This document shows, piece by piece, positions 4,161 to 25,179 of a DNA stretch of 64,000 nt. The DNA is from Trypanosoma brucei. Lineage: Eukaryota. The notes under the pieces were generated by a model. That model saw nothing but the letters and a program-made list of their open reading frames with translations. It did no database searches and was not told the origin of the DNA. How positions within the stretch are numbered: the stretch's first letter is position 1; each line of letters opens with the position of its first letter. A program made the translations under genes and the position numbers. The DNA lies in NCBI GenBank assembly GCA_000002445.1, contig CP000071.1, positions 1,280,001 to 1,344,000 of the forward strand, read 5' to 3'.

Positions 4161-4725
4161 TGTGCAGCTCGGAAGTTAGAAGTGGGGATGTAAAGCAGAT
4201 CGAGTCAGTAGCAACCGGCAGAGAAAGAAGAAAGTAAAACAAACCCACACAGTCTGTCACAGTAACCGCGTAAAAATTGTGGGACTAGCCGTGCAGTTCC
4301 TCTATTCCTCTGGTCACGCGGCACCGGTGCAGAACTGGGCACCACCTCTATCTGCTGCTTGTTTTCTTGTCCCTTCGCTGGTCAACCAACCGAGTTTAAG
4401 AAAATAAGGGAAGTTAAAAGAATGGCCAAATTTGCATAATATAAACATGTGCGCAAAACAGTGAAGTTGAAAAAACTGGTCTCGCATATGTGCGTGGAGA
4501 TGAGACTAAGTACGTGGGTGTGGATGTGCACGCGCTACACGGCACAACGAGAGATGAAGAAGTTGACAACAGCGACATTTTCACACGGAAGAGTTATACA
4601 AACACGTCAACACAAAAATAACCAGGGACTAAGGGAGAAAGGAATATGCATAAATGTTGCCTCCAGCACCCGTGGACCGTGTTGTTAAAAGTGTATTACC
4701 TGCCCATCTTAACAACCGCCCACGG

Positions 4726-4777
<52 letters not shown>
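4726..4777. repeat. compound microsatellite (CA)n(TA)n
   Basis: The sequence reads acacacacacacacaca followed by about 16 TA units. Confidence 0.95.
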
Positions 4778-4780
<3 letters not shown>

Positions 4781-6609
4781 GTTATCAGCAAGGGAGAGGG
4801 AAAAGAAGGGTTGCAATTCACACTAAAAATAGTAATATATATTAGTGTGTATGTTTGCTTGCACGCATAAGTTTAACAAGGCAAAGAAAAAACAGGTACA
4901 GTAGACGGTCGTACTCAGTTTCTGCATCTGAGACTTCCTGATCTGGCCTGACCTCACCTCATCTCCCCCTTCTCAACCCTTTGAGCTGCCAAATCCTCAG
5001 GTAAAATGGAGCGCCGCAATACGCCTCAGGCGGAAAAGTAACGAAAAAAAAAACGGCACACTAGTGACACTTTCATCCCCTTATTCCTTTTCTTCACCCT
5101 TCCTTTCAACAGCTCAATAACCATTTCATCTATTTCCTCGTCCACTTCATGTCAAGTGATGTCACAAAAATCAGTCCCATTCCCCCCCGTACTCTCTTTT
5201 TCTGATGCGCTTCCTCTTTCAATCCGTCCTTCCCCAGCTCCCTTCAAAGACCACCACATCCCCTCCATAATGCAACACACAACAAAAAGGAAAGAGAGGA
5301 ATGGAAAAAGAAATGAAGAAGAGAAAAGAGGTTGAAGGAAAAGAAAGGAAAGGAAAGTGAGACCCTACTCAGAGAATGCATTGACAGCAACAGTTGTGCC
5401 ATTACGTGACATGGCACCCATTTCCGTTTCTTCATAGGAATACCATGGTTTTCTTTTTTTTTTTTGTCCGGGGGGAGGGGGTTGCCTTGTCGGTCATATA
5501 TTTCTTTGCGGTTTCACTCCACTGCATCACCGCTGCTCCCTCCCCCGATAAAATTTTCCGCAAGTTCAGCAAATCGATTCCGTGAGTTGTTTTTTCTTTT
5601 TCTTTTTTTTTCTTCGTTCCCTCCTTCTTTCCTTCCTTCTAAATGTACGTATGTTTGTGCCTCACTGGAATTCTTCATTTTATTCATTTCCCTCCATCTT
5701 TTCATTCTTCTTTTCCCTCTTTTTTTTTTCATCTTCCATTTGCTCAAACAACTCCCACCCCCCAATCCCAAGCCTTTATGACCACAACGACTACACCAAA
5801 CCCACAAAAGGCTGACCTACCTATTTCAAAACATTCAGCCATACCAAACCCGAATATGAAGGGAACAAACAAACAAACAAACAACAAAAAATGGAAACAC
5901 AAAGACAGAACAGTGGAGAAACTAAAGGGATGGAATCGAAATAACGAGTGAGCATTGTTTTACTTATATTATTTATGTGCGCAATTATCCACTTGTTTGA
6001 AGGGTTGTTGTTAACCAGCAAAGCACAGAAACCTGAGACTGTTTTTTTTCCCCTCCCTTTTAAATAGAAAAGAGAGATGCGGCGCTCGCAGTAATAACAT
6101 ATACGCAACATAACGCACGCAGTCTCAGAGGTGTAACCGTGAGCGCAGCAAACGGACACACACGATTGAAATTTAATAACAGCAAGATTTGTCAGAGTAG
6201 CTTTGTATAAAAGAGGGCCTGGCAAACCAAAGAGGCACACAGAAAGGTGTAGGGGCAAAAGGTTCGTAAAGGAAGAGAGAAAGGGAAAAGGAAGGGAGGG
6301 AGGGCATGGAAGGGAACAACAACAAAAAAAAAGCGGTAAGCTGCGCCCAAGTATTTGATACTCCCCACACATCCCACTCCATCGGGCATTTGTTACTTGA
6401 GCAAATGTCACATGTTAGATACAACAAATGTCTTTACACCATAGTGTATGTATGCATAATTCCCGTCCACTCCTTATTTCGTTTCCCTACTCAACCACTC
6501 ACAACCACACGAACACGAACATACACATATACGTGTGCACTCCTTTTTCTCTTTTTTACCAAAGTTACCTTTTTTTTTTCTATCCAGGCCTTAATCGCTT
6601 TCTGAAGTC

Positions 6610-7260
6610 TTAACAGCACCCGCCACTCGCCTTACCAGCCGGCTGGTTGGAATTGGAAGGCGAAAGGTTCACTGGCTTTTTGGCTGCCGCGCCTGCATTA
6701 AGAGGCGGCCGCTTGCCCGTTGCAGCGGAATCGACCGGCGCCACAACATGGTCATACACCGATTTCGCAAGCCACTCAAAAGCCTTGTCTACGTTTGTTT
6801 TCTCCAACGCGGAGGTTTCGAGGAAAGACAAACCGTTTTCACGGGCAAAGCGGTCAGCCACTTCCTTTTTGATCACACGCAGGTGCTCAAGATCGCATTT
6901 GTTGCCAATGAGAAAGATAGAGCACGTGGCGGGTACGAAGGCGCGGAGCTCCTGAAGCCACGTGGAAATGGAATCAAATGATGTTTGGTTGGTGATGTCA
7001 TAGACGAGCATCGCCCCCTTCGCTCCGTGGTAAATCGAACGGGAGATGGCGCGGAAACGTTCCTGCCCAGCGGTATCCCAAATCTGCACTTTGGCGTCCC
7101 GCCCTTCAATTTTGATGCTTTTTGTCATAAACTCCACGCCGATAGTCGCCGGCGTGTCTTGACTGAACTCATCGGCTGTGTAGCGAGTCATGAGGTTGGA
7201 CTTCCCAACACCGCTGTCACCCACGATAACAACTTTGAACGTAAGGTTCATGTCTTCCAT
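6610..7260 (-). CDS. RAB11: Rab family small GTPase, Rab11-like, 216 aa with a C-terminal GGCC double-cysteine prenylation motif
   Basis: P-loop GDSGVGKS, switch II WDTAGQERFRAIS, NKCD and ETSA(L) G-boxes. The N-terminus (FKVVIVGDSGVGKSNLMTRYTADEF) and the RAI(S/T) switch II are closest to Rab11. The protein ends in CC. The subfamily assignment is from memory. Confidence 0.8.
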   Translation of the reverse strand: MEDMNLTFKVVIVGDSGVGKSNLMTRYTADEFSQDTPATIGVEFMTKSIKIEGRDAKVQIWDTAGQERFRAISRSIYHGAKGAMLVYDITNQTSFDSISTWLQELRAFVPATCSIFLIGNKCDLEHLRVIKKEVADRFARENGLSFLETSALEKTNVDKAFEWLAKSVYDHVVAPVDSAATGKRPPLNAGAAAKKPVNLSPSNSNQPAGKASGGCC

Positions 7261-9217: not shown

Positions 9218-9820
9218 TCATTTAACGCAAGGCACTCCACAAACATCAACATTATACATTTTCTTCTTAGTTTTTTCCACCAGAACCTTCTGCACATCAA
9301 ACAATGCGAGCATTTGAAACAATGCCGTAACACAGGCAGCAAATACCACCATGGAATGCAACGAACAGCTATGCACGGCTCTTCCCGACTTTCCAATCAC
9401 TGCTGTTTCATTATCAATAGTCCCCGATTCATTCAGCATGGAGGTTAGCTCCGCTGGGTTATTCAACGCATCAAAAAACTCCGAGTGGTTGAGAATTCCC
9501 AAGTCGCGGCAGTCCAAAACGACAAGTAACGTCAGACCGGTGGAATGAGTGAGGAAGCCAAATGTTATTAACAACACGAAGGTAATGATGTACAGCAAAT
9601 ACCGCTGCTTCAGGCTAATGCAATGCAGCGCGGCGTAGCAAAAGAGAGAAAGACTACAGAAAGCAACGCTGAGCATATGAAATACGGTGAAACGGTCCCG
9701 CTTCACTTCACGAAACACAACCACTGAAAGGCACACGGCGTAAATGGTTGTACTCAAAGCCAATAAAACGGCAGTGATCACGCTCATGAACCTACGGAAG
9801 CAATTACCGACGGAAGCCAT
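9218..9820 (-). CDS. hypothetical small 4-TM membrane protein (200 aa)
   Basis: Four hydrophobic ~22-aa segments, with a Cys-containing loop between TM3 and TM4. The sequence is coding-like relative to its flanks. Confidence 0.55.
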   Translation of the reverse strand: MASVGNCFRRFMSVITAVLLALSTTIYAVCLSVVVFREVKRDRFTVFHMLSVAFCSLSLFCYAALHCISLKQRYLLYIITFVLLITFGFLTHSTGLTLLVVLDCRDLGILNHSEFFDALNNPAELTSMLNESGTIDNETAVIGKSGRAVHSCSLHSMVVFAACVTALFQMLALFDVQKVLVEKTKKKMYNVDVCGVPCVK

Positions 9821-11049: not shown

Positions 11050-14000
11050 TCATGCACTGCAATTGGGTAACACACCTACCACCACATGTCTCTCCCCAAC
11101 TTGAAGTACACCTCGTAAAAACAGTGCGGCAGCAGCAGCAGCGCTAATACCGAGAAAAATGAGGAGCCACCGCACCATCTGAGCAGCTTGCGCATTTATG
11201 TAGCAATCGACCGCACGCTGTTTCCGAAGCATGTGAACTCTCTGGTTCTGATAAAAGTCAATCAACCGCTGGCGGGCGGCAACCGCCTGTGCGCGCTCCA
11301 AGAATGCTTCGCAATGCCGCCCTTCCAGAGAAGCCCACGGGTTGCGTCGCGAAATTAGTTGATAGGGACAACTTCCTCTTTCGTAGACCGCCACTGAACT
11401 TAGGCGGCGGCGCGTGTTGCTTTTTTGAACATCTACACATGGTGACGCCCCCCAACGACATGCGCCACCTACTGTAGAAAACAGAACAGTCATGGCACGC
11501 TGACATAACTGGTGCTCTTCTGCCAACGGCGAGCTGGAGGCCGAAATAGACAATGTAGGCTCCAGCGTTTGCGGAGTTGTTACTCCGCCGTGCTCAGAGG
11601 TTTCCTCACGCCACGTAGAAGAGGTTACTGGCGTTTGTCGGATGCTAAACAAGGTCTTGGCTGGTGAACAACTTCTCAACCTTCCAGAGAACAATGCCGA
11701 CCGTACATGAGCCCAACGTTCCCTGCTCCGGCTTGTGGAAGTCACTACCGGCCTTGCCGATGGGGCAGAAGGAGACGGACTCCCGCATGTAGAGTACGAA
11801 TTCGCAGGCGGTACTGAGTGGTCAACTGCCGGCGGTGACGGTGATGCCGCCCGTGAGTTGAACCCATCTCCTACTCTGTTGTGCCGTAAATGGAGATGGT
11901 TGGAGCCTACCCGCCGCAGCCTATCTGATGTTGCCGCCCCTAGCGGTCCCGCATTTGCAGAGAGTTCAGTCTTAAGGAGTGAAAAGTACAACGCTGGTAC
12001 AAAGATTTGATAGCTACGTGGCTCCTGGTTGTGATGCAAGAACCAGTGCGAACCGGAGTGCTTTGGTTTGGGTCGTAGACCACACGTTAAAAAATCCCAA
12101 AGGAAGCCACAAACTTGGTTTCCCCGCTGCCGCCTTTTCGTCCGCTTTCTGTGCTTTAAACGACACTGGCGTCGGCTAGCCAATAAGCCACCAACGAGAA
12201 TGGCACCGCACGGCACAAGGAGGAAACAGGACGCGACAAACGACCATAAAGATCTCGAAACGACTGCCGGTTTGAACGAGGACACCAAACCCATAGCTGC
12301 CAGTACAACTAGCATGAGCTGCAACGCCAGGCTCAACGCGAATTCTACGGGTCCGGAGTACGGCCTACATACAACCAGGATAACAAGCATCCCGAGGTGA
12401 AGGATAACGGAGGCAATGAAGCCGGTCCAAGGACTCGCCAAACCGTCATCTTCCTGCATAACAGCAGAAAATATAACCACAGCAGTTTTTTGGGCCAGCA
12501 CAACAAGCTTGAAGTAACGCCAGGAGAAGGTGTACGGCGCATACAAAAAGTGCACCTCATTCTGTGAACTGTGAACTCTTCCATAATAATTTTTATGTCT
12601 CATGCGCTCACGACCACTTTGACTTACTCCTTCACGCGGCACTGTTCCCCGCGCTGGTTCCCACTTTCTGCCAAAGAAATTTCCTGAATGGTGAAATGCC
12701 TCTGCTGTATTTCCACCAATTGCAGGCACCACTTCCGCTGACCGCGCAGAACAGCTCCCTGAATCCTCAAGTGGATAGTGCTCCAAGGCCAGCAGCGCCT
12801 GTCGTGTGACGAGCCCGTAGAGTAAAATAAAGAATGTGGCATACGTAGTTGACGTGAGTAAGGCAGACGCGTAGAGAAAGAAGTTTACGCTGTCACAAGA
12901 GACATTCGATCCGACCATCAGCTTTCGTGCCTCGGTAGTGCTCCACTTTGAGGTATCAACCTCCAAAACGGAAGTAGACTTATTATCTGCTCCACAGGCG
13001 ACAGGAGCATTGTTGTCAACCACATCACGACAGGGGATGAGACCGATGGCACTCCGAATGAGCGGGGCGTACAGGAAGGAAACGAGAAGTAGCAAAGTAT
13101 AAAGAAACAAATGCCGAAACCACAGCTTTGCATCAAATAGCCACCGGCGACCGCCCTCTGAGAGACCAACTGAGAGCGACAACGCGAGAAAGAACGTCGT
13201 CAGAAGGAGCATGCTAACTGGGAAGTATATTAGCGGGCTGCAAAAAAGCGACTCAGTCGATTCCCACAGGCTCTTCCTTAGGAGAAAAGCAGCGGCAGTT
13301 CCACTTCCCAACAGTACCAGCAACTTCAACAGTGCCCACCATAATGAAAAGGCATGCGTTTCTCCATGCCGCCGCTGCATCATTTCCTGGTACGCCAATT
13401 CTGCTTTCGCACAACGCAGACGGGTCTCTTCCCTCTCTCGCTCTTCAACCGGTCTTTCCATGCCGCCTTCGCCATCCCTCCACACACACCCGTTGTGACT
13501 CGCAGCAATGTTCATCAGCGACTCAGCTACACGCTCCTCCACGGAATGTGGAGCCTGTTCCAAATGCCGGAGCTGCTCCAATAGTTGTGCCTGCCTTCGC
13601 TTCCCCCAGATGAGACGCAGTGTGAGACCAACAGCAGCTAACAAGCCCACAGAAACGGCACTGGCTGCAGCTATTGCCACCTTTGTGTCCGAGGGGATAG
13701 CACGCACCAGTTTCAACAGTGCGCTCCCGCTCTCGAGCACTTCCAATGAATGTTGTGCGTGAAGAAGCAACGTACATCCGGCCAAGAAAAAAACCGCGGT
13801 ACAGAGCGCATACGCAAACGCAATGAATTGGGGTGGACCTAGCACCGGCGCAAAAAGCACGACGAGGGAAAGCGGTGCCACAATGTTTGTGAGGGCAAAA
13901 ACCCTACGCAAATCTGGGGGCATCCACTTGGGCAAGTTCAGAGTGGAACCTTCAAACATGCGAGTCGTGTTATTATGTTTTGAAGTGCCATTGACTGTCA

Positions 14001-14181
14001 CGGCTACACCGCCACCATGGGAAATGGCATTCATCGCCCTGCCCACAAATCGAAGAAAGGAACTGTACGCTGGCGGAAAGACACTTGGAGCTATCAACAC
14101 TGTGAGATTGATGTATTGAACGTAGTTTGCCAACAACTCCACAACATCATATAGCATCGTGTCGAGACCTCCACCAATCAA
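11050..14181 (-). CDS. hypothetical polytopic membrane protein (1043 aa), paralogous to the neighbouring 1368-aa gene
   Basis: Long ORF with 10 or more hydrophobic segments in the N-terminal half, a Ser/Pro-rich soluble middle and a C-terminal TM (MVRWLLIFLGISAAAAAALFL). The N-terminus shares the ANYVQY...SVFP and LNLPKWMPPDLR motifs with the ORF at 16185..20291. Confidence 0.7.
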   Translation of the reverse strand: MIGGGLDTMLYDVVELLANYVQYINLTVLIAPSVFPPAYSSFLRFVGRAMNAISHGGGVAVTVNGTSKHNNTTRMFEGSTLNLPKWMPPDLRRVFALTNIVAPLSLVVLFAPVLGPPQFIAFAYALCTAVFFLAGCTLLLHAQHSLEVLESGSALLKLVRAIPSDTKVAIAAASAVSVGLLAAVGLTLRLIWGKRRQAQLLEQLRHLEQAPHSVEERVAESLMNIAASHNGCVWRDGEGGMERPVEEREREETRLRCAKAELAYQEMMQRRHGETHAFSLWWALLKLLVLLGSGTAAAFLLRKSLWESTESLFCSPLIYFPVSMLLLTTFFLALSLSVGLSEGGRRWLFDAKLWFRHLFLYTLLLLVSFLYAPLIRSAIGLIPCRDVVDNNAPVACGADNKSTSVLEVDTSKWSTTEARKLMVGSNVSCDSVNFFLYASALLTSTTYATFFILLYGLVTRQALLALEHYPLEDSGSCSARSAEVVPAIGGNTAEAFHHSGNFFGRKWEPARGTVPREGVSQSGRERMRHKNYYGRVHSSQNEVHFLYAPYTFSWRYFKLVVLAQKTAVVIFSAVMQEDDGLASPWTGFIASVILHLGMLVILVVCRPYSGPVEFALSLALQLMLVVLAAMGLVSSFKPAVVSRSLWSFVASCFLLVPCGAILVGGLLASRRQCRLKHRKRTKRRQRGNQVCGFLWDFLTCGLRPKPKHSGSHWFLHHNQEPRSYQIFVPALYFSLLKTELSANAGPLGAATSDRLRRVGSNHLHLRHNRVGDGFNSRAASPSPPAVDHSVPPANSYSTCGSPSPSAPSARPVVTSTSRSRERWAHVRSALFSGRLRSCSPAKTLFSIRQTPVTSSTWREETSEHGGVTTPQTLEPTLSISASSSPLAEEHQLCQRAMTVLFSTVGGACRWGASPCVDVQKSNTRRRLSSVAVYERGSCPYQLISRRNPWASLEGRHCEAFLERAQAVAARQRLIDFYQNQRVHMLRKQRAVDCYINAQAAQMVRWLLIFLGISAAAAAALFLRGVLQVGERHVVVGVLPNCSA

Positions 14182-16184
14182 AACATACAGATGGGAGGAG
14201 CTTTTCCCCTCCCTTTGTTCTTTCGGTTGTCTTTAAAAAAAAAAATAGTGAAACACAGTATTATGTAAAACAAAAGGGATGAGACAAAAGGGACGGTATG
14301 GCGGAAATAAAATACAAGTGTACAGCCTCACACATCTTCTCCGCAATCGATGTGAAGTGGAAAAGGTAAGACAGCAAACACACACAATAGGGGAAACATT
14401 CTTCACGGTACACGTAATCATATGTTCACGGATGGAGAGGAGACAGAGTTGCAATAATTTAATATAAGTTGTTAATTATGTATAATTGTATGTCTATGTG
14501 TGCTTATTTAAGAGTTTTACTACCATAATTTTGGCCCTCATCTCCATATAAATCTTGTGGTACATTTGCAAGCACCAGTACCTATTTCCTTTCTCATTTT
14601 TATTCCTTTCGCTTTAGCATTAGTTAGGTTACGATTATTATTATTATTACACTTTTTTTTTCGCACACTTCCCCGTTTTTCTTCGTCTATCCATCCCCGA
14701 GTTGCACAAGCAGCACGAGTAACATGAGCACCGGTATTGTTAGAAGCGGCAAACAAAAAAAAAGGAATTTGAAAAAAAAAATCAAAAACAAACACACAAA
14801 GTCATACAAGTCAAAGAAAAAAAACATTTACATACTGGCAGCGGGGCTAGTAGCGAGTATGGTTTAGCTATTTTCTTTCAACATTTGTTTTGCAGCTTTA
14901 CATAACCCCGTAGCATTTCGAGCGCCGTGTTGTGGGAGAAAATAAATCCAGGGGAGGAAGTCAACCACGTCTGAAAAAAAGGCGTGTGTGAAACCTCACG
15001 AGGCGACTCCACCAATTCCAAATATAAACACAAACACAAATACAGACACGGATACCACCAGTAACAAACAATGTTTCCCCCCCCTTTCTCCTCCAAAATA
15101 AAGACATATATTAAACCTCTCGCATTTTCGCATTTCAGGGCGCGCTCCCCTTTCCACTACAAGAGCATGCAATAGTAGGTGAAAAAGAAAAAAAAAAGAA
15201 AAAGTGGAAACCAAAAGACAAAACCTTTTCCGCACGCACACTCATGCGCGCTCACGTTCACATTCATACCAAATATTGTATACGAGTGACTTCGAAGGAG
15301 AGGTGCCCAGAGAGGGAGAAAGATGCACACAACCATCAGCATCACGCCTCACACTGGTGTGGAAACAATATTGATATCAGTAATGCTAGGGGAAAAAAAA
15401 AACACAAGTAATATTTTAAAAGGCCAAACCAAAAAATGTTTGATTCTCCCCTCCTCGATCCACCGAAAAGCAAGAATACATTTTCAGCCTCACTACGAAG
15501 ATATATACAATCATATATGCACTACAACGCGAGTGGTTGTACAATGAAAAGGACAAAGGCAAGAGATGGGGGGCAATGCAAAAAAAAAAAAAGGGGGCGT
15601 GTATGTTTATGAATATAGTTGGAAGAGCGAGATGTTATTCATATTGGAGTTGAGACTCCGGAAGAAGGTGAATACACATCAAGAGGCACTTGCAGGCAAA
15701 AATCGTGCACAGGCCCTTCCAGATGTAATTTCCCCCTTTCTCTGCTCCACATTCACTCAAAAATACAAACGCACAGGCAGAGCATCAGAAAGGAATAGTG
15801 CAACACATAAAAACTCGTAAGGACTTCATCACAAAAGGGGGAAAGTGAAGAAAAGATAGCAAATGCAACAAAAAATATATATATATATATATATACATTG
15901 CTCCTTAACTTCCTGCTTGCAGTTTACACAGCAACGCAAACAACCGACCCCCTTCGCTCTGTCCCGCAGACAGAAAATTTCATTATTTATCTGTTGCAGC
16001 TTTAAATGTATTACCAATAAATATTAACATGCACATATACGCAGTCACATACGATTATTTCTGTCCTTCAAATTGTTGGTTATTGTTCATGGGCATTCTT
16101 TTCTCTTCCCTTATTTCATTTTCTACGCACCCGTTAAAATGGCACTCAAACCGAAATGAAGTTGCTTGCATGCGCTTTCTGTTA

Positions 16185-19100
16185 CTACCACCGCAAGATT
16201 TCTTGTTCCGTAACTGGCGTAGTACAGTTCTCAATTTCAACTCTTCCCTTTGGATGCAACTTCAATTTGCATCCGTTTTTGAAATCCATGCCACATAACT
16301 CACGTATTTTGAAACCATCGACAGCTTCGCCTTTAAGGACATCACGCCGCACTCGCTCCTTCACTAGTCTGTTTCTACACACCCACCGCTCTAAAGCCAT
16401 CACGTTGTTTGGCGGTAAGGCAGCGGGTGATGACAAACTGCTGCAGCAACAATTACGAGTGAACTCCTCCCATGATTTGTAACCAAATAGTTGATTGTGC
16501 ACACTGTAAGCACTCTGGGCGTTTGTTAAACTAATATTGTCTCCCTTGTACATCATTCCTCCAATGCACATGGCTAGGGACAGCGTTGAAAAGAGGCAAA
16601 GCGCCACAAAGAAAATTTGCATGTAGCGTCTGATACTCATAGCGATGCGGTGGTCCACAGCCATCTGGAGAGATTCCAACTTCCCTGCCTCAGAATTATA
16701 TTCGTCAACCAACTGTTGTCGAAGCAGGTAATGTCGTCGCAATTTCGGCATATTTTCTGCATTCATATTAGCCGCTCCCCTCACCAGCGCGCGGGCAGAC
16801 GAGACATCCATCCACGATTTTCTTTTCGCAGATGGAGAACCTGCCATTTTCAAGGCAGCGTCCAACGTTACCGATTGTCGTCTCCCTGTTGTTGTGTCCT
16901 TGGGCGACCCCTCAGCTTCGGCTGACTCGCGAGATCCGGTTTCCCTATACTTCTCCAGCGGGTCGGGTATGTCTTCCAGTAGCCTTTGAACAAAAGCCTC
17001 CCAGTTCCCTTCACTTTCTCCCTCAAGGGCGACATGAGGTGCGAACTCGGGGCAGATTGACGGGCGCCGCTCGGTGACAGTAGTGTCTTTAAGATCACGA
17101 GGCAGAAGACGATCTAAATCGGCAGCCTTCAGTTCAGCGAGTGCTGCGCATAGCTGTTCCTTCGAGAGCATGGCGGATATGCGGTCTGAGACATCACTGG
17201 TTATTGTCTGACCGTATGGGTTAACGTTACCTTCCTTAGCGACTGGTAAGTTGCTTGCCACGACAGCCAGTGCGCTGCTCGGGCTATTTGACCCCTTTGT
17301 CTTACCACTACCTTCCTTTGCTGTTTTTGCGGCGGTTACCGCTCTGCTCGATGGGCCAACAAGGGGATTCCAACATTTCTTCTTGTGTTCCACGAGTTTA
17401 GCGAAAAATTGACTTGGTTCATATGGGCTCGACGGACCCTCATCACCTCCAGCGCTTTGGCGTATCGCCGGTACATCACACCCCTCGGCCTTAGCCGCCA
17501 AGAACTGAGACTCGGAAGGAGTGATCCAAAATGGCCTCTCCGCGATGCCAGCCGTCATTTTGAGGGTTCTTCGACTTTGCAGCACCTCCCCATAACGTAG
17601 AGTGTTGCTGTGTACATGAAACGCCTTTCCACACTGCCGCATCCAACGAAGCATTACAGAGAAACAAGAGGGCTTTCCTTTTGTGGCGTCATCTTCCTTC
17701 TTAGCAGAATCGTACTCTTCGCCATGCTGCGTTTCATGGCGCCAACCATCCAACGCGTTAGAGGGAACTGCCACCCCTGGTGGATAGCCGTCGTCAGGCA
17801 AGTAGTCGTCCCCTTCCCTTATTAACGATGACAGTACCGCCTTCAGTTCACCCCTTTTAACTGCTGTCTGTTCGTAGAGCTCATCATCCATCCCACCCCC
17901 CTCACCTTCACCTTCACCTTCGCCACAATCATGGGACAGTGGAACTTCTTTGTATCCACGGAAGTATTCCTGGGGTTCGAAGGATCGTTTGTCACCAAAA
18001 TAATCGTCTTTCATGACCTTTTCCTTCTTGTCAGTCTCTTCGGGTGCATTATGTTCATCCGCAAATACTACAGCTGTTCCTATATCGGCACCATCCGAAG
18101 GCCCTGAAGCCGGTGCCCCCTCTCGATCCGCACGATTCCCACTTCTTTGTCTCGTGTTATCCCCTTTCACCCCACCTCCTGCCGCGGGCAAACTTGCTAA
18201 AACTTGAGGATTCTGTGCAGGTAGACCCGTCTCCCTTCCGTTCGAAGAATCGTTCACTTCGGCGCCTGGTTGCGGGTTATTGGCCATATCCCCCGGTGAT
18301 TGCGCAGAACCAACTGTAGTACCATCTCCACGTGGGGGTAAATCAGGGTCAGTACACGCAGTTGCTTGCCCCTTGCAGTTAGGGTTGTCAAGGCTTTCAC
18401 CCACCACCACGTTATCAGGCGATTGGTTTTCAGCAGTGTCTGCCACAGTTTCGAAATCGCGCTTAAGACGACTCTGTAGTCGCTCCACGCGTTGACGGTC
18501 GTTACGAAAGGTAAGTACAGACCCCACGATAAGGGCAAACATGGGAGCAACAATCATGAGGGCAACCGCAGTTATGGTGACGGCATTTGGAACAAGCTCT
18601 CTGGTCGACATACTCCCCACAACACCGAGAGATCCAATAAACGTAAGAACCAATTGATGCGAAATACTGTACCAGTTTTCCACAGGACGTGCATAAGGCC
18701 TGACCATCATGAGGTACGTCAGGTACACCAAGCAGATGCATGTGATGAGACTAATACCCAACCATGCAACCACTGACCCTGGACCCCGTCGCATCAGTAC
18801 ACCAATAAGGACCAGCAAGATCCTTTGCAAAAGAAACAAAATACGTGACCGACGAAACTGATACTTAAACGCCACGTACAGCGAAGACGAGACGTTTCTG
18901 GACATCAAAGTTTTTTCATAATAAAGCTCCTTTTTATTGAACTCATCACAGATACGCTTTTCAAGTGGGTACTCGTCCACCAGGATGCTCGTAGCTCGAT
19001 CGATTGATAGTATGAGGAAAGCAGGATATGCGACAAAGTAAGCAATGAATACCAACGACATGGACATCTTGTAGAAGTTGTCTATCTCACGGCAGGATAC

Positions 19101-20291
19101 TCGAGGATCGTATGCCAGACGTTTTTCACGAATATTACCACCACATAGCTTAATTTGCAGCGATTTAGAACATTTCTGCGTGTGCTCCGTGAAGTTGCAA
19201 GCAAGACAAGGTTTTTCAGTTGTATCCCAGGAGTTTGAAAAGTTTCTCGACCCCCCTACAGCGGATTTCATTCTGATCATCATCTCTCCTTCATTACAAG
19301 ACACCTCAGTGCACACTAACAACCTCATCATATTCAGTGTCACCGGAGTAAAGGCAATGGAGAGGGCAATCAGCGCAGTACTGGTGAGTGCTTTGGACAA
19401 TTTGTCCGTCAGTTTAACCTGTATCTGTCTCCCCTTTTGAGAAATACTGAGTAAAGCCCATATGACAATTACGCTACTGGCAACAAAAAATGTAATAGCC
19501 ACTGCTTTATCATAACGGCCTATTTTCAAGGCTTCAGCTGAATCTTCTGTTGGCAATGTAACGTATATGAAGTATCCCGCTGCAATAGCAATGCCGCAAA
19601 CGAGCAGTTGGATTAAAATGCTGCGCCACCTACGAGCCTGGACATACACCTCTTTTTTTGCTTCGTAAGCGAGCAAGGCAGACGTTGCCCTCTTGTTTTG
19701 CGTCACACGTCTCACAGCTTTTTGTATTGCGGATACCTCTTCCCGATGCTCGGCCCCCCGATCGGCGGCCATTTCCAATCGTCTCTTTTTTTTCTGACTC
19801 CGACGTAACATGAATAGATAGATGATGCCTGCAACAAAGAGAACAATGAGACCCACTCCACCAGCGAGAACAAGAATCCTTTGTGTTTCGCGGGTCATTA
19901 TTTCCATTTTTTCTGCGCGAGGCGTGGAGACAAGCACTGCGCCAAGTACTGTAAAGAAAACGGCCACCACTTGCGCGAAAAGACAGAGGGACGCGCCCGT
20001 CGAAGACACAATCAAGAACCCTCCAAGAGAGATGACCATGGGAATAATGACAACAATAAATGTGTAGTTTAGGCGACTGTCGTGGGGAATCCAGTTGGGA
20101 AGTGTGAACATTTGTTCCCTTTTTTGTGAATCCCCCGTTAGATAATCATACGATATATGTAATAATGCCAACTGGCCTTTCGAAAGCGGCTGCAGAATTA
20201 TTTCTGGGAAGCTGTTTGGTGAGAGAGAGACCATGATGTACAAGTATTGCACGTATGCCACCGTCATGTCAAATAGGTCAACGAAAGTCAT
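16185..20291 (-). CDS. hypothetical polytopic membrane protein (1368 aa) with an acidic GEGEGEGEG tract, tandem paralog of 11050..14181
   Basis: Long ORF. The N-terminus has VAYVQYLYIMVSLSPNSFP and FTLPNWIPHDSR, matching the upstream paralog. It has multiple TM segments, a long soluble region containing GEGEGEGEGGG, and a C-terminal TM (IFFVALCLFSTLSLAMCIGG) preceded by LRQQLVDEY, comparable to the paralog's RQRLIDFYQNQ. Confidence 0.7.
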   Translation of the reverse strand: MTFVDLFDMTVAYVQYLYIMVSLSPNSFPEIILQPLSKGQLALLHISYDYLTGDSQKREQMFTLPNWIPHDSRLNYTFIVVIIPMVISLGGFLIVSSTGASLCLFAQVVAVFFTVLGAVLVSTPRAEKMEIMTRETQRILVLAGGVGLIVLFVAGIIYLFMLRRSQKKKRRLEMAADRGAEHREEVSAIQKAVRRVTQNKRATSALLAYEAKKEVYVQARRWRSILIQLLVCGIAIAAGYFIYVTLPTEDSAEALKIGRYDKAVAITFFVASSVIVIWALLSISQKGRQIQVKLTDKLSKALTSTALIALSIAFTPVTLNMMRLLVCTEVSCNEGEMMIRMKSAVGGSRNFSNSWDTTEKPCLACNFTEHTQKCSKSLQIKLCGGNIREKRLAYDPRVSCREIDNFYKMSMSLVFIAYFVAYPAFLILSIDRATSILVDEYPLEKRICDEFNKKELYYEKTLMSRNVSSSLYVAFKYQFRRSRILFLLQRILLVLIGVLMRRGPGSVVAWLGISLITCICLVYLTYLMMVRPYARPVENWYSISHQLVLTFIGSLGVVGSMSTRELVPNAVTITAVALMIVAPMFALIVGSVLTFRNDRQRVERLQSRLKRDFETVADTAENQSPDNVVVGESLDNPNCKGQATACTDPDLPPRGDGTTVGSAQSPGDMANNPQPGAEVNDSSNGRETGLPAQNPQVLASLPAAGGGVKGDNTRQRSGNRADREGAPASGPSDGADIGTAVVFADEHNAPEETDKKEKVMKDDYFGDKRSFEPQEYFRGYKEVPLSHDCGEGEGEGEGGGMDDELYEQTAVKRGELKAVLSSLIREGDDYLPDDGYPPGVAVPSNALDGWRHETQHGEEYDSAKKEDDATKGKPSCFSVMLRWMRQCGKAFHVHSNTLRYGEVLQSRRTLKMTAGIAERPFWITPSESQFLAAKAEGCDVPAIRQSAGGDEGPSSPYEPSQFFAKLVEHKKKCWNPLVGPSSRAVTAAKTAKEGSGKTKGSNSPSSALAVVASNLPVAKEGNVNPYGQTITSDVSDRISAMLSKEQLCAALAELKAADLDRLLPRDLKDTTVTERRPSICPEFAPHVALEGESEGNWEAFVQRLLEDIPDPLEKYRETGSRESAEAEGSPKDTTTGRRQSVTLDAALKMAGSPSAKRKSWMDVSSARALVRGAANMNAENMPKLRRHYLLRQQLVDEYNSEAGKLESLQMAVDHRIAMSIRRYMQIFFVALCLFSTLSLAMCIGGMMYKGDNISLTNAQSAYSVHNQLFGYKSWEEFTRNCCCSSLSSPAALPPNNVMALERWVCRNRLVKERVRRDVLKGEAVDGFKIRELCGMDFKNGCKLKLHPKGRVEIENCTTPVTEQEILRW

Positions 20292-22404: not shown

Positions 22405-25179
22405 TCACTTTGGTGCACTCTGGATCACTCGGTAAACCCCAATAATTGCCCCAACAAAACCAACAATGGCACCCGTTGGATGGATCATCGCTTTTAGAGG
22501 AGCATCCCGCTTCCCTGTGTCGTACCCCCCAAAGCAGTACATCACAGCAAGGTAAAACTCCGCTAAGTAACTCACCTGAAGCCAAATGGTAGCACTCCAG
22601 TTAGAATGAGATCGCACCAACCATATGTAGTTGAAAAGCCTTCGCATCAGCCACGGAATAAACAGAAAGACAACCTCAGCGCGTCCTGTTATCGACTTAG
22701 ACGCTTTTTGCCGTACAGCGGCATTCCCATTGGTCTCAACTTCCTCCGTGTCAGTGACGCCTTTTTCCTCCGCTGTTGTGTCATCACCACCCTCCTCGAG
22801 CTTTTCACCCTGTTCGTCGGGTGATGTCATCTCAACAAAGAGCTTGCCGCATACACGACAGGCGGGGGCGATGTTCTCCGGATCAGCAGCCTCAAAGTAA
22901 CCCGGGGAGGAGCAAATGGGCACGCCGAAATCGAGATCCACATCTGGGAAGTACAAATTTGCCTGCCGCCGGATAACGAGCTCACGGAAAAGCATTACGG
23001 AGCCCCTTGTGTCGGGGTCCTTACAACCACAGCGAAACCTGGGATTGTCTCTGACATTTGTATACTTGTACCAACCGGGGTTCAACAGACGAATTGTGTT
23101 CAGGAGGACGTCAATGCTGGCAACTATCAACCATAGCCAGTGGCAGTGCCGTTGAAGAAGCGCACGGTTTTTCTCAACCGGTGACAGGTTTAAAAAGTGC
23201 TCAGATGAAAGCAGGAGGAGGTCGCGGAGCAGACGGCGGGCAATAGTCGCGATACTGCGCACGGCCTGAAGTAGTATGAGAGGTGTGCTGAACTGGAGAA
23301 TACCCTTGCGTCGACTCGCAGGTTTCCCCATCTCTGCTGCAAGACCTCTCTCCCTCTCTTCTTCCCTGTCGTCAGAGGGAGAGACAGTACCATTAGACTC
23401 TAAGTGGTTATCACCTTCATCAAAGGCTGCACCGAGTGAGAACATGTTCTCTTCTGCACCTATATCATCACCGTTATCAACAGCACTCCCACAACGTGCA
23501 AACTTGGCTCTAGAGGGTTGGTTCTTTGACATTTTGTTCATACTGTCACCTTCACCTTGGTGAGGCAACCGCAGAGCATCACCAAGCTTCGGTTCGTACG
23601 GCACAGTTTGGTACATTTTAAAATAACTCTGATGAGAGTCATCAGGATTTCTGCTCGTTGAGAAACCCTCGTTGTATGTGTCGCCTTTGGGTTTCCCTTC
23701 TTGCATCAAACTATAATTAAGCGAACCACCGCAAATGCTGCTGGGTGCCGTATTGTTGTTGTGAGCGATTGATGTGTTGTTGCTGTTGCTTGACTCATCA
23801 TCGGCTCCAGTGCATCGGAGTGGCCGCAGTAACGTGGCAGGTTTTGATAGTGACGCCCTTGTGGTGTTACCAATACCAACTGCATACATCTCAGTGGCGG
23901 CAGGGTATAATGACGGAGGGGTCGCGGAAGGGGCGAGAGAACCCGAAGTGAGCGCCTCAGTTCGCAGCGGATCACGAACCATGAGACCTTTACCTTCTGA
24001 TAGTGTTGAGAAACCCGCCACCTTGCGGTCTCCATCTTCTTTAGCCTCCTCGCTTTGCAACGCCATATCAGACGCTTTAATGGCACCAGAAACTCCCACC
24101 TCCTTCTGTTGTATCCCGGTCAGACTCGGACCAGTAGTAACTAATTTCGCATCGATAGAATGCAACTCTGAGACGAACTGACGAGGAAACTCCACACGAG
24201 CGACGTGCTCATATGTGTCACCAGGAACCAAAACTTCCCTATTCACAAACTGACCGGCGCTTCCTCCCCCAACACCATTGTTGTCCCACCCGATAAGTCG
24301 TCGCATCACGGACCCCGGTGGAAGGGATAAGTATCGGCATAAGAACGCCTTAAATTCACCCTTCACCTCCCTCATAGTCCTTCCATATTTCAAGGCAAGT
24401 CTTTCGTAAACCTCCTGCAGGTAAAAAGCATTCACTATCCAACGCCCCAACTTGAACAAGCTGCGTCCGTGGCGAATGGTGTTAATATTTTTTCGAAAAC
24501 GTTCTGCCCAGTAATCTGCAGTCTCCTCCGAACCCTGTGGGAGGATTGACGGCCGCATCAAAAGACAAATTAAAAGATGCAAACTACACTGCATACACTT
24601 AAATAATCTGTCCCGACCGTCTGAAGCTGTCAACAAATAAAGAAATGTGCTTCGTGGAAGGTCATTAGGAATCAAGAACGCCATGTTGTCATCAGCACCC
24701 TGCAAGAAACCACCTACTCGCACCTGCGTGCGGTCAAAGTTGTCACCATCTCTACGTGAAACAACCCTGTTAGCAATATCTGCCTCCTCATCGTCGTCCA
24801 GACCATCTTCATCTTTTTCTGTGCCAGTGTTTGGATAAATAACTGTCATGAATGGGTCAACGGTGCCTGAATCTAAAAAACCTTCTGGAGAGCCATCGCC
24901 GGCCGGATCGGCTGCGTCGTCTTTACGCTTTGAACTCTCTTTGGGGAAGCCAAGTTCCTCCTGCAGAAGCTGTGAAGAAGTTCCTATTTTCACCACTCTC
25001 TTACGCGGTACTGGTGCTTTAATCGCAGATGATCCAGCGACCGCGTCAGGCAAAAACTCCTCCTCATTATTATTATTATTGTTATTATGTGCCCCAGCAA
25101 CAGCAGCGTCGCATCCGCTGTTGTTACTGTCAGCCATTAATCCGCAGCTACTGCACGGTAGTTCGTGGCTGATAACCAA
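22405..25179 (-). CDS. hypothetical protein (924 aa) with a poly-Asn run and a C-terminal hydrophobic hairpin
   Basis: Long ORF. The (TTA)n at about 25066-25089 encodes N8. The C-terminus (WLQVSYLAEFYLAVMYCFGG...AIVGFVGAIIGVY) is hydrophobic. I recognise no family. Confidence 0.6.
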   Translation of the reverse strand: MVISHELPCSSCGLMADSNNSGCDAAVAGAHNNNNNNNEEEFLPDAVAGSSAIKAPVPRKRVVKIGTSSQLLQEELGFPKESSKRKDDAADPAGDGSPEGFLDSGTVDPFMTVIYPNTGTEKDEDGLDDDEEADIANRVVSRRDGDNFDRTQVRVGGFLQGADDNMAFLIPNDLPRSTFLYLLTASDGRDRLFKCMQCSLHLLICLLMRPSILPQGSEETADYWAERFRKNINTIRHGRSLFKLGRWIVNAFYLQEVYERLALKYGRTMREVKGEFKAFLCRYLSLPPGSVMRRLIGWDNNGVGGGSAGQFVNREVLVPGDTYEHVARVEFPRQFVSELHSIDAKLVTTGPSLTGIQQKEVGVSGAIKASDMALQSEEAKEDGDRKVAGFSTLSEGKGLMVRDPLRTEALTSGSLAPSATPPSLYPAATEMYAVGIGNTTRASLSKPATLLRPLRCTGADDESSNSNNTSIAHNNNTAPSSICGGSLNYSLMQEGKPKGDTYNEGFSTSRNPDDSHQSYFKMYQTVPYEPKLGDALRLPHQGEGDSMNKMSKNQPSRAKFARCGSAVDNGDDIGAEENMFSLGAAFDEGDNHLESNGTVSPSDDREEERERGLAAEMGKPASRRKGILQFSTPLILLQAVRSIATIARRLLRDLLLLSSEHFLNLSPVEKNRALLQRHCHWLWLIVASIDVLLNTIRLLNPGWYKYTNVRDNPRFRCGCKDPDTRGSVMLFRELVIRRQANLYFPDVDLDFGVPICSSPGYFEAADPENIAPACRVCGKLFVEMTSPDEQGEKLEEGGDDTTAEEKGVTDTEEVETNGNAAVRQKASKSITGRAEVVFLFIPWLMRRLFNYIWLVRSHSNWSATIWLQVSYLAEFYLAVMYCFGGYDTGKRDAPLKAMIHPTGAIVGFVGAIIGVYRVIQSAPK

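What the first reader, a model, noticed from the sequence alone, without database searches (positions are those of the whole stretch)
11050..20291. Tandem pair of divergent paralogous giant polytopic membrane proteins
The adjacent minus-strand genes 11050..14181 (1043 aa) and 16185..20291 (1368 aa) share N-terminal motifs (ANYVQYINLTVLIAPSVFP with VAYVQYLYIMVSLSPNSFP; LNLPKWMPPDLR with FTLPNWIPHDSR). They also share an architecture: a block of ~10 TM segments, a long Ser/Pro/acidic soluble region, then a single TM a few residues from the C-terminus preceded by a conserved L(R)QQLVDEY / RQRLIDFYQNQ helix. That points to an old tandem duplication of an uncharacterised membrane-protein family, now highly diverged. 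The family has no domain I can name.
Basis: seen in the sequence. Interest (0 to 1): 0.65.

Follow-up and report, generated by a model that had tools for sequence, protein, structure and literature searches.

The report
Tandem TRP-like (Flc/Pkd2-related) membrane paralogues
Two neighbouring Trypanosoma brucei genes are real, anciently duplicated copies of a large multi-pass membrane protein from a little-known protist-wide family that is distantly related to the fungal Flc/Pkd2 "TRP-like" putative calcium channels; one copy keeps the ancestral cysteine-rich outer domain and the other has lost it.

Summary
Gene A (11050..14157, minus strand, 1035 aa from its first ATG) and gene B (16185..20291, minus strand, 1368 aa) are true paralogues: BLASTP gives E=1e-17, and a profile-profile comparison gives E=5e-56 over 564 columns. 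The window is T. brucei chromosome 8, next to Rab11.

The B-A tandem pair is syntenic in T. cruzi. Porcisia (Leishmaniinae) and Phytomonas have only B at the same locus.

The family is not trypanosome-specific. A profile finds 275 cluster representatives, in kinetoplastids, Colponema and a haptophyte. The family consensus and some members pass Pfam's threshold for PF06011 "TRP", the fungal Flc/Pkd2 family. The two window proteins do not pass it themselves.

B keeps the ancestral layout:
- a core of 11-12 TM helices with a 7-Cys outer loop
- a cytosolic helical hairpin carrying a long disordered insert
- a last TM
- a 120-aa 7-Cys ectodomain

A has lost the ectodomain and most of the loop cysteines.

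AlphaFold models are confident (pLDDT 88-90) and match no solved structure.

The most likely function is a Pkd2/Flc-like role in calcium permeation or calcium homeostasis. This is inferred, not shown. I rate it a new variant of a known kind, of moderate interest.

The parts
16185..20291 (-). Gene B, 1368 aa. It keeps the ancestral architecture of the family.
   Evidence: ORF. 99% identical to a T. b. equiperdum hypothetical protein, with orthologues in 7 Trypanosoma lineages. Family profile hit at E=1e-221.
18429..20291 (-). B transmembrane core, aa 1-621. N-terminal helix 2-23; TM helices at about 72-95, 98-122, 134-162, 222-245, 259-283, 301-325, 405-431, 482-500, 506-530, 536-561 and 569-597.
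   Evidence: AlphaFold2 model with an 86-sequence alignment: pLDDT 87.6, pTM 0.86. Hydropathy. Loop charges and cysteines fit a single consistent topology.
19080..19316 (-). B loop between TM6 and TM7 (aa 326-404), predicted to face outside or the lumen. Exactly 7 Cys, two N-x-S/T sequons, partly beta structure.
   Evidence: 7 Cys in all 8 B orthologues. These Cys columns are invariant or nearly invariant across the family. Beta strands in the model.
18501..18860 (-). B TM8-TM11 (aa 478-597), the stretch that aligns to positions about 268-408 of Pfam PF06011 'TRP'.
   Evidence: The Trypanosoma consensus (18.1 bits) and the family consensus (50.4 bits, E=2e-13) match in the same register. Reversed-sequence controls give no PF06011 hit.
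16758..18428 (-). B cytosolic linker (aa 622-1178). It begins with the helical extension of TM11; the rest is mostly low-complexity sequence (Ala, Gly, Glu, Ser, Asp, Pro) with some blocks conserved among B orthologues.
   Evidence: Composition. Conserved blocks among B orthologues. No significant similarity to A's linker. Linker length ranges from 40 aa to about 1300 aa across the family.
17961..17981 (-). B linker motif FEPQEYF (aa 771-777), an instance of F-x-P-[AS]-x-[YF]-F.
   Evidence: Invariant F/P/F columns in the A+B alignment. Present in 22 of 22 trypanosomatid proteins checked and in 0 of 133 others. Coordinates verified.
16548..16757 (-). B conserved cytosolic helix (LRQQLVDEY...QMAVDHRI) running into the last TM (aa 1223-1248).
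   Evidence: Invariant R1191, L1194, Q1209, A1211, V1212, D1213 and G1245 across A and B. In the full-length model of homologue P0050 this is one long helix (618-694) that follows the long helix extending from TM11 (514-582) after a short low-confidence loop; I read the two as an antiparallel hairpin.
16188..16547 (-). B C-terminal 120-aa ectodomain: 7 Cys (a CCC triplet plus 4), E-x-W-x-C, ERxR, ends in R/L-W; beta-rich.
   Evidence: Alignment A5: invariant C, C, E, W, C, R, R, C, C, C. The C-terminal module is detected in 144 of 173 family proteins and is complete in 64. No Pfam hit and no PDB hit. Beta strands with pLDDT above 90 in the P0050 model.
14158..16184 (.). Intergenic spacer between B and A (about 2 kb) with poly-pyrimidine and (TA)n tracts, as usual in a trypanosome polycistronic unit.
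   Evidence: Sequence read directly. All long ORFs in the window are on the minus strand.
11050..14157 (-). Gene A, 1035 aa from the first ATG. It is the derived paralogue.
   Evidence: ORF. 100% identical to a 1035-aa T. equiperdum protein. Family profile hit at E=3e-134. Orthologues are intact in 6 Trypanosoma species, with more than 100 invariant columns.
12127..14157 (-). A transmembrane core (aa 1-677), collinear with the B core. The TM6-TM7 loop is shortened (47-52 aa in A orthologues, 2-5 Cys). An extra insert lies in the loop between TM7 and TM8.
12283..12552 (-). The stretch of A that gives the sub-threshold PF06011 hit (18.2 bits; Pfam positions 280-364).
   Evidence: The register agrees with the family-level hits. 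On its own the score lies within the noise seen in the reversed controls.
11983..12003 (-). A linker motif FVPALYF (aa 719-725).
11098..11310 (-). A conserved cytosolic helix (ARQRLIDFYQNQ...QRAVDCYI) plus the last TM (aa 994-1020).
11053..11097 (-). A 15-aa tail after the last TM. There is no ectodomain.

Best explanation
Genes A and B are tandem paralogues encoding large multi-pass membrane proteins. They belong to a family found widely in protists, which is a distant, architecturally distinct relative of the fungal TRP-like Flc/Pkd2 proteins (Pfam PF06011).

B keeps the ancestral plan:
- a core of 11-12 TM helices whose TM6-TM7 loop carries 7 conserved cysteines on the outer or lumenal face
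- a long cytosolic helical hairpin formed by the extension of TM11 and the helix that leads into the last TM; in trypanosomatids this hairpin has acquired a disordered insert of several hundred residues
- a final TM
- a 120-aa, 7-cysteine, beta-rich ectodomain on the same face as the Cys loop

A arose from a B-like gene by tandem duplication within the trypanosomatid lineage. It evolved fast, lost the ectodomain and shortened the Cys loop. It kept the TM core, the hairpin helices, the last TM and the trypanosomatid linker motif.

By analogy with S. pombe Pkd2 and yeast Flc proteins, the most likely activity is Ca2+ permeation or regulation of Ca2+ homeostasis in the surface or secretory-pathway membrane, in response to membrane stress. 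On this reading the paired extracellular Cys modules of B would be a sensing or gating cap, and A would be a cap-less variant or partner subunit.

Shown: paralogy, synteny, family extent, architecture, the link to PF06011, and the absence of a solved homologous fold.
Inferred: topology, the antiparallel hairpin, the loop-ectodomain interaction, channel or Ca2+ function, and any A-B partnership.

Approximate likelihoods: paralogy 0.98; PF06011 superfamily relationship 0.8; Ca2+/channel-type function 0.4.
For: Paralogy.

Orthologues and synteny.

Family extent:
- 275 cluster representatives at E<=1e-3 and 72 at E<=1e-30 in a library of 1.8 billion proteins.
- Named members come from Porcisia, Phytomonas, Neobodo, Papus, Apiculatamorpha, Colponema and Prymnesium.

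Link to PF06011:
- 11 of 43 distant members hit it (best 2e-11), and it is the only recurrent family.
- P0124 scores 34.4 bits against a cut-off of 28.5.
- The family consensus scores 50.4 bits, E=2e-13. The Trypanosoma consensus and protein A match in the same register.
- Reversed controls give no PF06011 hit.
- UniRef already names the T. rangeli A orthologue 'TRP C-terminal domain-containing protein'.

Architecture: confident AF2 models of the B core (pLDDT 87.6, pTM 0.86) and of the full-length 810-aa homologue P0050 (pLDDT 89.5, pTM 0.86).

Cysteines and ectodomain:
- The 7+7 Cys pattern is family-wide.
- In A, ectodomain and loop cysteines are lost together.
- Conserved N-x-S/T sequons lie next to the CCC triplet and in the loop.

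Function of the closest characterised relatives:
- Reconstituted Pkd2 passes Ca2+ when the membrane is stretched (PMC9727806).
- Flc proteins act in Ca2+ homeostasis (PMC9600462).
- One distant family member carries an EF-hand pair.
Against: - Neither window protein reaches the Pfam cut-off. A scores 18.2 bits, within the noise of the reversed controls, and B has no hit.
- Family-level matches are strongest over the last four TM helices only.
- The defining fungal N-terminal ML-like domain is absent, and the C-terminal end differs.
- Even for PF06011 proteins, channel activity is only partly established, and Flc proteins were first proposed to be flavin carriers (PMC9600462).
- No localisation, expression or phenotype data for these genes was found.
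- No oligomer model was made and I had no coordinates, so the hairpin geometry and the loop-ectodomain contact are conjecture.
Confidence: 0.5

Rival explanations
1. The homology and architecture are as described, but the proteins are not channels. They would be carriers (for example of flavin or another small molecule, as first proposed for yeast Flc1-3), or receptors or scaffolds of the secretory or endocytic system.
For: Flc proteins were named as putative flavin carriers, and their molecular activity is unsettled (PMC9600462). A monomeric core of 11-12 TM helices resembles a transporter more than a classical pore-loop channel. The top Foldseek hits, although not significant, are transporters. 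The huge disordered cytosolic linker with a conserved short motif would suit a scaffolding or sorting role.
Against: No transporter family gives a significant sequence or fold match. The best-characterised relative, Pkd2, passes Ca2+ in vesicles (PMC9727806).
Confidence: 0.27
2. The PF06011 resemblance is convergent or compositional. On this reading the proteins belong to an independent protist family with a new fold and an activity unrelated to Flc/Pkd2.
For: The window proteins are below the Pfam cut-off. Most consensus-level alignments cover only about 130 Pfam positions. There is no TRP_N domain. No solved structure exists for either family, so the folds could not be compared. The AlphaFold database library was unavailable.
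Against: - Hits recur in the same register in many independent members, and two of them extend over Pfam positions 150-405.
- The consensus score of 50.4 bits compares with 20.6 bits or less for any family in the reversed controls.
- PF06011 is the only Pfam family hit by more than one member of A3.
Confidence: 0.18
3. Gene A is a decaying, non-functional remnant of the duplication.
For: A has lost the ectodomain and most loop cysteines, sits on a long branch, and was found only in Trypanosoma.
Against: The ORF is intact, at about 1000 aa, in T. brucei, T. congolense, T. vivax, T. cruzi and T. conorhini; the T. rangeli entry is 747 aa on a short 3.5-kb contig. More than 100 columns are invariant, including the family's signature residues.
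Confidence: 0.03
4. The two ORFs are unrelated, and their similarity is chance matching of hydrophobic and low-complexity sequence.
For: Only 20% identity. The linker regions show no significant similarity.
Against: BLASTP with composition correction gives E=1e-17. hhalign gives E=4.9e-56. Non-TM segments are significant on their own. Invariant motifs are shared across 11 orthologues.
Confidence: 0.01

Closest known systems
Fungal TRP-like / FLC family (Pfam PF06011 'TRP'): S. pombe Pkd2, Trp663, Trp1322; S. cerevisiae Flc1-3 and YOR365C; C. neoformans Flc1; A. nidulans TrpR
   Same: Detectable sequence homology at family level over the later TM helices, and in some members from about TM4 to TM11. 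Both have a multi-helix TM domain (9 helices predicted for Pkd2, bioRxiv 10.1101/2022.08.11.503631) followed by a largely disordered cytosolic region. Neither has a solved structure.
   Different: There is no signal peptide or N-terminal ML-like/TRP_N lipid-binding domain; conservation starts at residue 1. A 7-Cys loop lies between TM6 and TM7. After the cytosolic region the chain re-enters the membrane and, in B, ends in a 7-Cys ectodomain. The family occurs in protists, whereas the literature calls PF06011 proteins fungus-specific (PMC9600462). The window proteins are below the Pfam cut-off.
Canonical TRP / polycystin channels (6-TM tetrameric pore-loop channels), including the trypanosomatid TRP and TRPML candidates Tb927.8.850 and Tb927.7.950 (PMC6027440)
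   Same: Only the name 'TRP' attached to PF06011, and a proposed link to Ca2+.
The protist family itself (unnamed; for example Porcisia hertigi JKF63_07653, Phytomonas CCW71370, and Neobodo, Papus, Colponema and Prymnesium proteins)
   Same: B shares every module: core, Cys loop, hairpin helices, last TM and ectodomain ending in W.
   Different: Trypanosomatid members carry a very long linker insert (about 560 aa in T. brucei B, 1100-1300 aa in Leishmaniinae, against 40-100 aa in short members) and the F-x-P-x-x-Y-F motif. A lacks the ectodomain.

Membership tests
Pfam PF06011 'TRP' (fungal Flc/Pkd2 TRP-like) | The protein itself matches the Pfam model at or above the gathering score (28.5 bits). 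| tested here: not met
   A scores 18.2 bits (E=0.0012). B has no hit. Reversed controls show noise up to about 20 bits.
Pfam PF06011 'TRP' (fungal Flc/Pkd2 TRP-like) | Homology to the model at the level of the family: profile, consensus or transitive. | tested here: met
   Family consensus 50.4 bits, E=2e-13. P0124 scores 34.4 bits and is itself hit by the Trypanosoma profile at E=1.5e-18. 11 of 43 distant members hit the model. The register is consistent.
Pfam PF06011 'TRP' (fungal Flc/Pkd2 TRP-like) | N-terminal signal peptide plus an ML-like lipid-binding domain (TRP_N, PF14558), present in most fungal members. | tested here: not met
   No PF14558 or PF02221 hit in A, B, 43 relatives or the consensus sequences. 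The conserved helix starts at residue 2.
Pfam PF06011 'TRP' (fungal Flc/Pkd2 TRP-like) | The TM domain is followed by a cytosolic tail that ends the protein. | tested here: not met
   Both A and B have a further conserved helix and TM after the linker, and B adds a 120-aa ectodomain.
Pfam PF06011 'TRP' (fungal Flc/Pkd2 TRP-like) | Ca2+ permeation on membrane stretch, or a role in Ca2+ homeostasis. | not testable with these tools
   Known for Pkd2 and Flc from the literature only (PMC9727806, PMC9600462).
Canonical TRP / voltage-gated-like ion channel superfamily | A 6-TM unit with a pore loop; matches to Ion_trans or PKD_channel models, or to solved TRP folds. | tested here: not met
Protist core-hairpin-TM-ectodomain family (defined here) | TM core with signature residues (Q15, R73, P84, G287-R288, P316, P532, P583 in B numbering). 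| tested here: met
   These residues are invariant or nearly invariant in A, B and 86 family members.
Protist core-hairpin-TM-ectodomain family (defined here) | A 7-Cys loop between TM6 and TM7, and a 7-Cys C-terminal ectodomain ending in W. | tested here: met
   Met for B (7+7 Cys). Not met for A (3 loop Cys, 15-aa tail). A is therefore a derived member.
Tandem paralogue pair | Significant collinear similarity, adjacency on the same strand, and separate orthologue groups kept in synteny. | tested here: met

The most novel reading that the evidence does not exclude
B, alone or together with A, forms a previously unrecognised class of eukaryotic membrane-stress- or ligand-gated Ca2+-permeable channel. 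Its gate would be controlled by a disulfide-linked extracellular cap built from the 7-Cys TM6-TM7 loop and the 7-Cys C-terminal domain, and coupled to a long cytosolic hairpin. In trypanosomes the cap-less A subunit would modulate it. This would give kinetoplastid parasites a Pkd2-like mechanosensory pathway with no solved structural counterpart and no host orthologue.
Probability: 0.15. Interest if true: 0.75.

Novelty: new variant of a known kind. Interest (0 to 1): 0.45.

Why it matters
- Trypanosomatid Ca2+ entry and mechanosensing pathways are poorly defined. The catalogued candidates (PMC6027440) do not include these genes.
- Placing two conserved hypothetical proteins next to Rab11 in a Flc/Pkd2-related family gives testable hypotheses: Ca2+ imaging after osmotic shock, localisation, and heteromer formation.
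- It also shows that the so-called fungus-specific PF06011 lineage has a widespread protist branch with a different architecture and no solved structure.
- The A/B pair is a natural experiment on what the extracellular cysteine modules do.
- No animal sequence was among the named family members, so the proteins might be selective targets. I did not test directly whether mammalian hosts lack a counterpart.

Tried and rejected
- The third word-indexed homologue search, with the 86-sequence alignment, returned only 7 Trypanosoma proteins because of the candidate cap. It added nothing.
- Foldseek against the AlphaFold database, the best way to compare with Flc/Pkd2 models, was not available.
- Three PDB sequence-profile searches found nothing credible. 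A Shaker Kv hit at E=1e-3 was set aside because no fold search supports it. It also covers the last TM helices and the charged helix after them.
- Weak single-protein Pfam hits (Ctr, SHR3_chaperone, DUF6249, 8xMP, FixQ, YajC) were treated as TM noise. They do not recur among orthologues.
- Literature searches for the likely gene identifiers around Tb927.8.4330 found no paper. I could not establish the exact TriTrypDB identifiers.
- I looked for a remnant of A downstream of B in Porcisia and Phytomonas and found none.

Full report
**Where the window comes from**

The window is Trypanosoma brucei-group DNA. Both ORFs have 99-100% identical database proteins from T. b. equiperdum and T. equiperdum. 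The ORF at 6610..7260 (minus strand) reads as a Rab11-type GTPase: it is 89% identical over its full length to the GTPase gene at the syntenic position in T. cruzi, and I assign it to TbRab11. TbRab11 is Tb927.8.4330 (PMC11018342). All long ORFs lie on the minus strand, as expected for a polycistronic unit. Their neighbours are ordinary housekeeping genes: IF-2B, ARPC2, a phosphorylase, a mitochondrial carrier, and RRM, CH-domain and MIF4G proteins.

**Checking the observation**

- Gene A most likely begins at the ATG at 14157, giving 1035 aa. This matches a 1035-aa database protein at 100% identity. The 1043-aa figure uses an upstream TTG that only the bacterial ORF lister accepts.
- BLASTP of A against B gives E=1e-17, at 20% identity, collinear over about 700 residues.
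- Profiles built separately from A orthologues (A7) and B orthologues (A8) align with probability 100%, E=4.9e-56, over 564 columns.
- Shuffle tests by region show the signal is not confined to hydrophobic segments:

| Region | Result |
|---|---|
| Segment before TM1 | z=9.2 |
| TM7 plus the following loop | z=8.5 |
| TM8-11 | z=18.7 |
| C-terminal helix plus TM | z=6.2 |
| C-terminal helix alone | p about 0.003 |
| Long soluble linkers | not significant |

- An HMM of the C-terminal module built from B orthologues only finds A at E=2e-8.

One architectural detail was wrong. In B the last TM (aa 1223-1248) is followed by a conserved 120-aa cysteine-rich domain. Only A ends just after the TM, with 15 residues.

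**Evolution of the pair**

- B-type orthologues exist in T. congolense, T. vivax, T. grayi, T. cruzi, T. melophagium and T. rangeli.
- A-type orthologues exist in T. congolense, T. cruzi, T. rangeli, T. conorhini and T. vivax.
- In T. cruzi the gene order is 903 aa, B (1467 aa), A (1004 aa), 197 aa, Rab11. This is the same order as in the window, and each gene is the reciprocal match of its window counterpart.
- In Porcisia hertigi (Leishmaniinae) and in Phytomonas, the B orthologue (2025 and 1676 aa) is followed directly by the small 190-199-aa gene. There is no A gene and no remnant of A in the spacer.
- In bootstrapped NJ trees of the core:
  - A is monophyletic in 100% of replicates.
  - A groups with all trypanosomatid B proteins in 97.5%.
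  - The B proteins of Trypanosoma, Leishmaniinae and Phytomonas group together without A in 92.5%.
  - A plus Trypanosoma B is never recovered.
- Taken at face value, this places the duplication at or before the base of the sampled trypanosomatids, with later loss of A outside Trypanosoma. However, A is a long branch, so a Trypanosoma-specific duplication pulled to the base by long-branch attraction is not excluded.
- A short linker motif, F-x-P-[AS]-x-[YF]-F, is shared by A and by all trypanosomatid B proteins and is absent from 133 other family members. This fits an origin of A within that lineage.

**The family**

- A HMMER profile of the Trypanosoma TM cores (A2), run against 1.8 billion cluster representatives, finds 275 proteins at E<=1e-3 and 72 at E<=1e-30.
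- Named members include Porcisia, Phytomonas, the free-living kinetoplastids Neobodo, Papus and Apiculatamorpha, the alveolate relative Colponema and the haptophyte Prymnesium. Many others come from metagenomes.
- Most are 750-1100 aa. Their consensus carries the same C-terminal helix, TM and cysteine-rich domain as B.
- B therefore has the ancestral architecture, and A is the derived copy.
- All 8 Trypanosoma B orthologues have exactly 7 Cys in the TM6-TM7 loop and exactly 7 in the ectodomain. These cysteine columns are invariant or nearly so across the family.
- A orthologues have a loop shortened to 47-52 aa with 2-5 Cys, and 14-16 residues after the last TM.
- The two modules were lost together, and each carries an odd number of cysteines. 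This suggests, as inference only, that they contact each other and may be joined by a disulfide.

**Relationship to known families**

- Alone, A gives a sub-threshold hit to Pfam PF06011 'TRP' (18.2 bits against a cut-off of 28.5). B gives none.
- Among 43 distant members, PF06011 is the only recurrent hit: 11 members, best E=2e-11.
- P0124, which the Trypanosoma profile finds at E=1.5e-18, scores 34.4 bits over Pfam positions 150-396.
- The family consensus scores 50.4 bits (E=2e-13). The Trypanosoma-only consensus scores 18.1 bits in the same register, with TM8-TM11 aligned to Pfam positions about 268-408.
- Reversed sequences give no PF06011 hit, and no more than 20.6 bits to any family.
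- UniRef already labels the T. rangeli A orthologue 'TRP C-terminal domain-containing protein'.
- I conclude that the family is a distant branch of the PF06011 superfamily (likelihood about 0.8).
- It is not a member of the fungal FLC family in the narrow sense. It lacks the N-terminal ML-like TRP_N domain, and it has an extra TM and an ectodomain.
- It is not a canonical TRP or polycystin channel either. There is no Ion_trans or PKD_channel hit, and no fold match to any solved channel.
- The literature treats PF06011 proteins as fungus-specific (PMC9600462).

**Structure**

- AlphaFold2 with an 86-sequence alignment gives a confident model of the B core: pLDDT 87.6, pTM 0.86.
- It contains an N-terminal helix, eleven further long helices that match the hydropathy peaks, and a partly beta-structured Cys loop.
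- A full-length model of the 810-aa homologue P0050 is equally confident: pLDDT 89.5, pTM 0.86.
- In that model TM11 continues as a long cytosolic helix (514-582). The chain then returns, after a short low-confidence loop, as a second long helix (618-694) that becomes the last TM. A beta-rich ectodomain follows (about 700-810). I read the two long helices as an antiparallel hairpin; I had no coordinates to confirm their packing.
Its partner is the conserved FRxDRERxERLQxRL segment after TM11.
- In trypanosomatids the tip of the hairpin has expanded into a disordered insert: about 560 aa in T. brucei B, about 270 aa in A, and 1100-1300 aa in Leishmaniinae.
- Loop charges, cysteines and N-x-S/T sequons fit one topology. 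The basic loops 163-221, 284-300 and 432-481 and the linker are cytosolic. The Cys loop and the C-terminal domain face outside or the lumen.

**How it most likely works**

The only characterised relatives are fungal.
- S. pombe Pkd2 is essential, sits in the plasma membrane and ER, and passes Ca2+ when vesicle membranes are stretched (PMC9727806).
- Pkd2's predicted structure is a lipid-binding domain, nine TM helices and a disordered tail (bioRxiv 10.1101/2022.08.11.503631).
- Flc proteins affect Ca2+ homeostasis, the cell wall and osmotic responses. They were first proposed to be flavin carriers (PMC9600462).

By homology, I take the most likely role of A and B to be Ca2+ permeation or Ca2+ homeostasis linked to membrane stress (likelihood about 0.4). 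On this reading B's extracellular cysteine modules would act as a sensor or gate, and A would be a variant or partner without them. One distant family member carries an EF-hand pair, which is a weak hint in the same direction.

The main rivals are:
- a carrier or scaffold role, about 0.27
- an independent family whose resemblance to PF06011 is spurious, about 0.18

**Verdict**

What is added here:
- the name of the superfamily
- the wide protist distribution
- the ancestral and derived architectures
- the synteny answer: two copies in Trypanosoma, one in Leishmaniinae and Phytomonas
- confident models of a fold with no solved counterpart

I rate it a new variant of a known kind, of moderate interest. 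No experimental literature on these genes was found.

Noticed in passing
window 17961..17981 (-) and 11983..12003 (-): Short linear motif F-x-P-[AS]-x-[YF]-F in the cytosolic linker (B: FEPQEYF; A: FVPALYF). It is present in all 22 trypanosomatid A and B proteins checked and in none of 133 other family members. Its function is unknown; it could be a sorting or partner-binding motif.
   Followed up: partly
window 19080..19316 (-) and 16188..16547 (-): All B orthologues have exactly 7 cysteines in the TM6-TM7 loop and exactly 7 in the C-terminal ectodomain, and these are conserved across the family. A has lost both sets together. Two odd counts suggest a disulfide between the loop and the ectodomain.
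   Followed up: partly
window 9218..9820 (-): A 200-aa hydrophobic, multi-spanning protein with no Pfam match. It lies directly downstream of the family gene in T. brucei, T. cruzi (197 aa), Porcisia (199 aa) and Phytomonas (190 aa), at 30-33% identity. Function unknown.
   Followed up: partly
window 22405..25179 (-): A 924-aa ORF (the lister starts it at a TTG) with an asparagine run and low-complexity regions and no Pfam match. It is the conserved upstream neighbour: 903 aa in T. cruzi at 42% identity, and partly conserved in Porcisia.
   Followed up: partly
window 6610..7260 (-): Rab11 GTPase (TbRab11, Tb927.8.4330). It is 89% identical to the T. cruzi gene and 75% to the Porcisia gene at the syntenic position, and it anchors the locus on chromosome 8.
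   Followed up: yes
L004 (Logan ERR12015700 contig), 1596..4889: An environmental relative, P0029 (1097 aa). It lies on a compact same-strand gene array with an ABC transporter, a 179-aa gene, a WLM protease and a Rab-like GTPase downstream. This is partial synteny with the trypanosomatid locus. The source organism is unknown, and there is no tandem duplicate.
   Followed up: no
alignment A3 (distant family members): One distant member carries an EF-hand pair (Pfam E=7e-6); I did not identify which protein. Separately, the A3 profile gives a borderline hit to Shaker Kv channels in the PDB (E=1e-3), which is probably composition bias.
   Followed up: no
window 14158..16184: The 2-kb spacer between B and A holds several long poly-T/poly-pyrimidine tracts and a (TA)9-like run near 15880. 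These are typical trans-splicing and polyadenylation landscape, with no sign of a third gene copy.
   Followed up: partly
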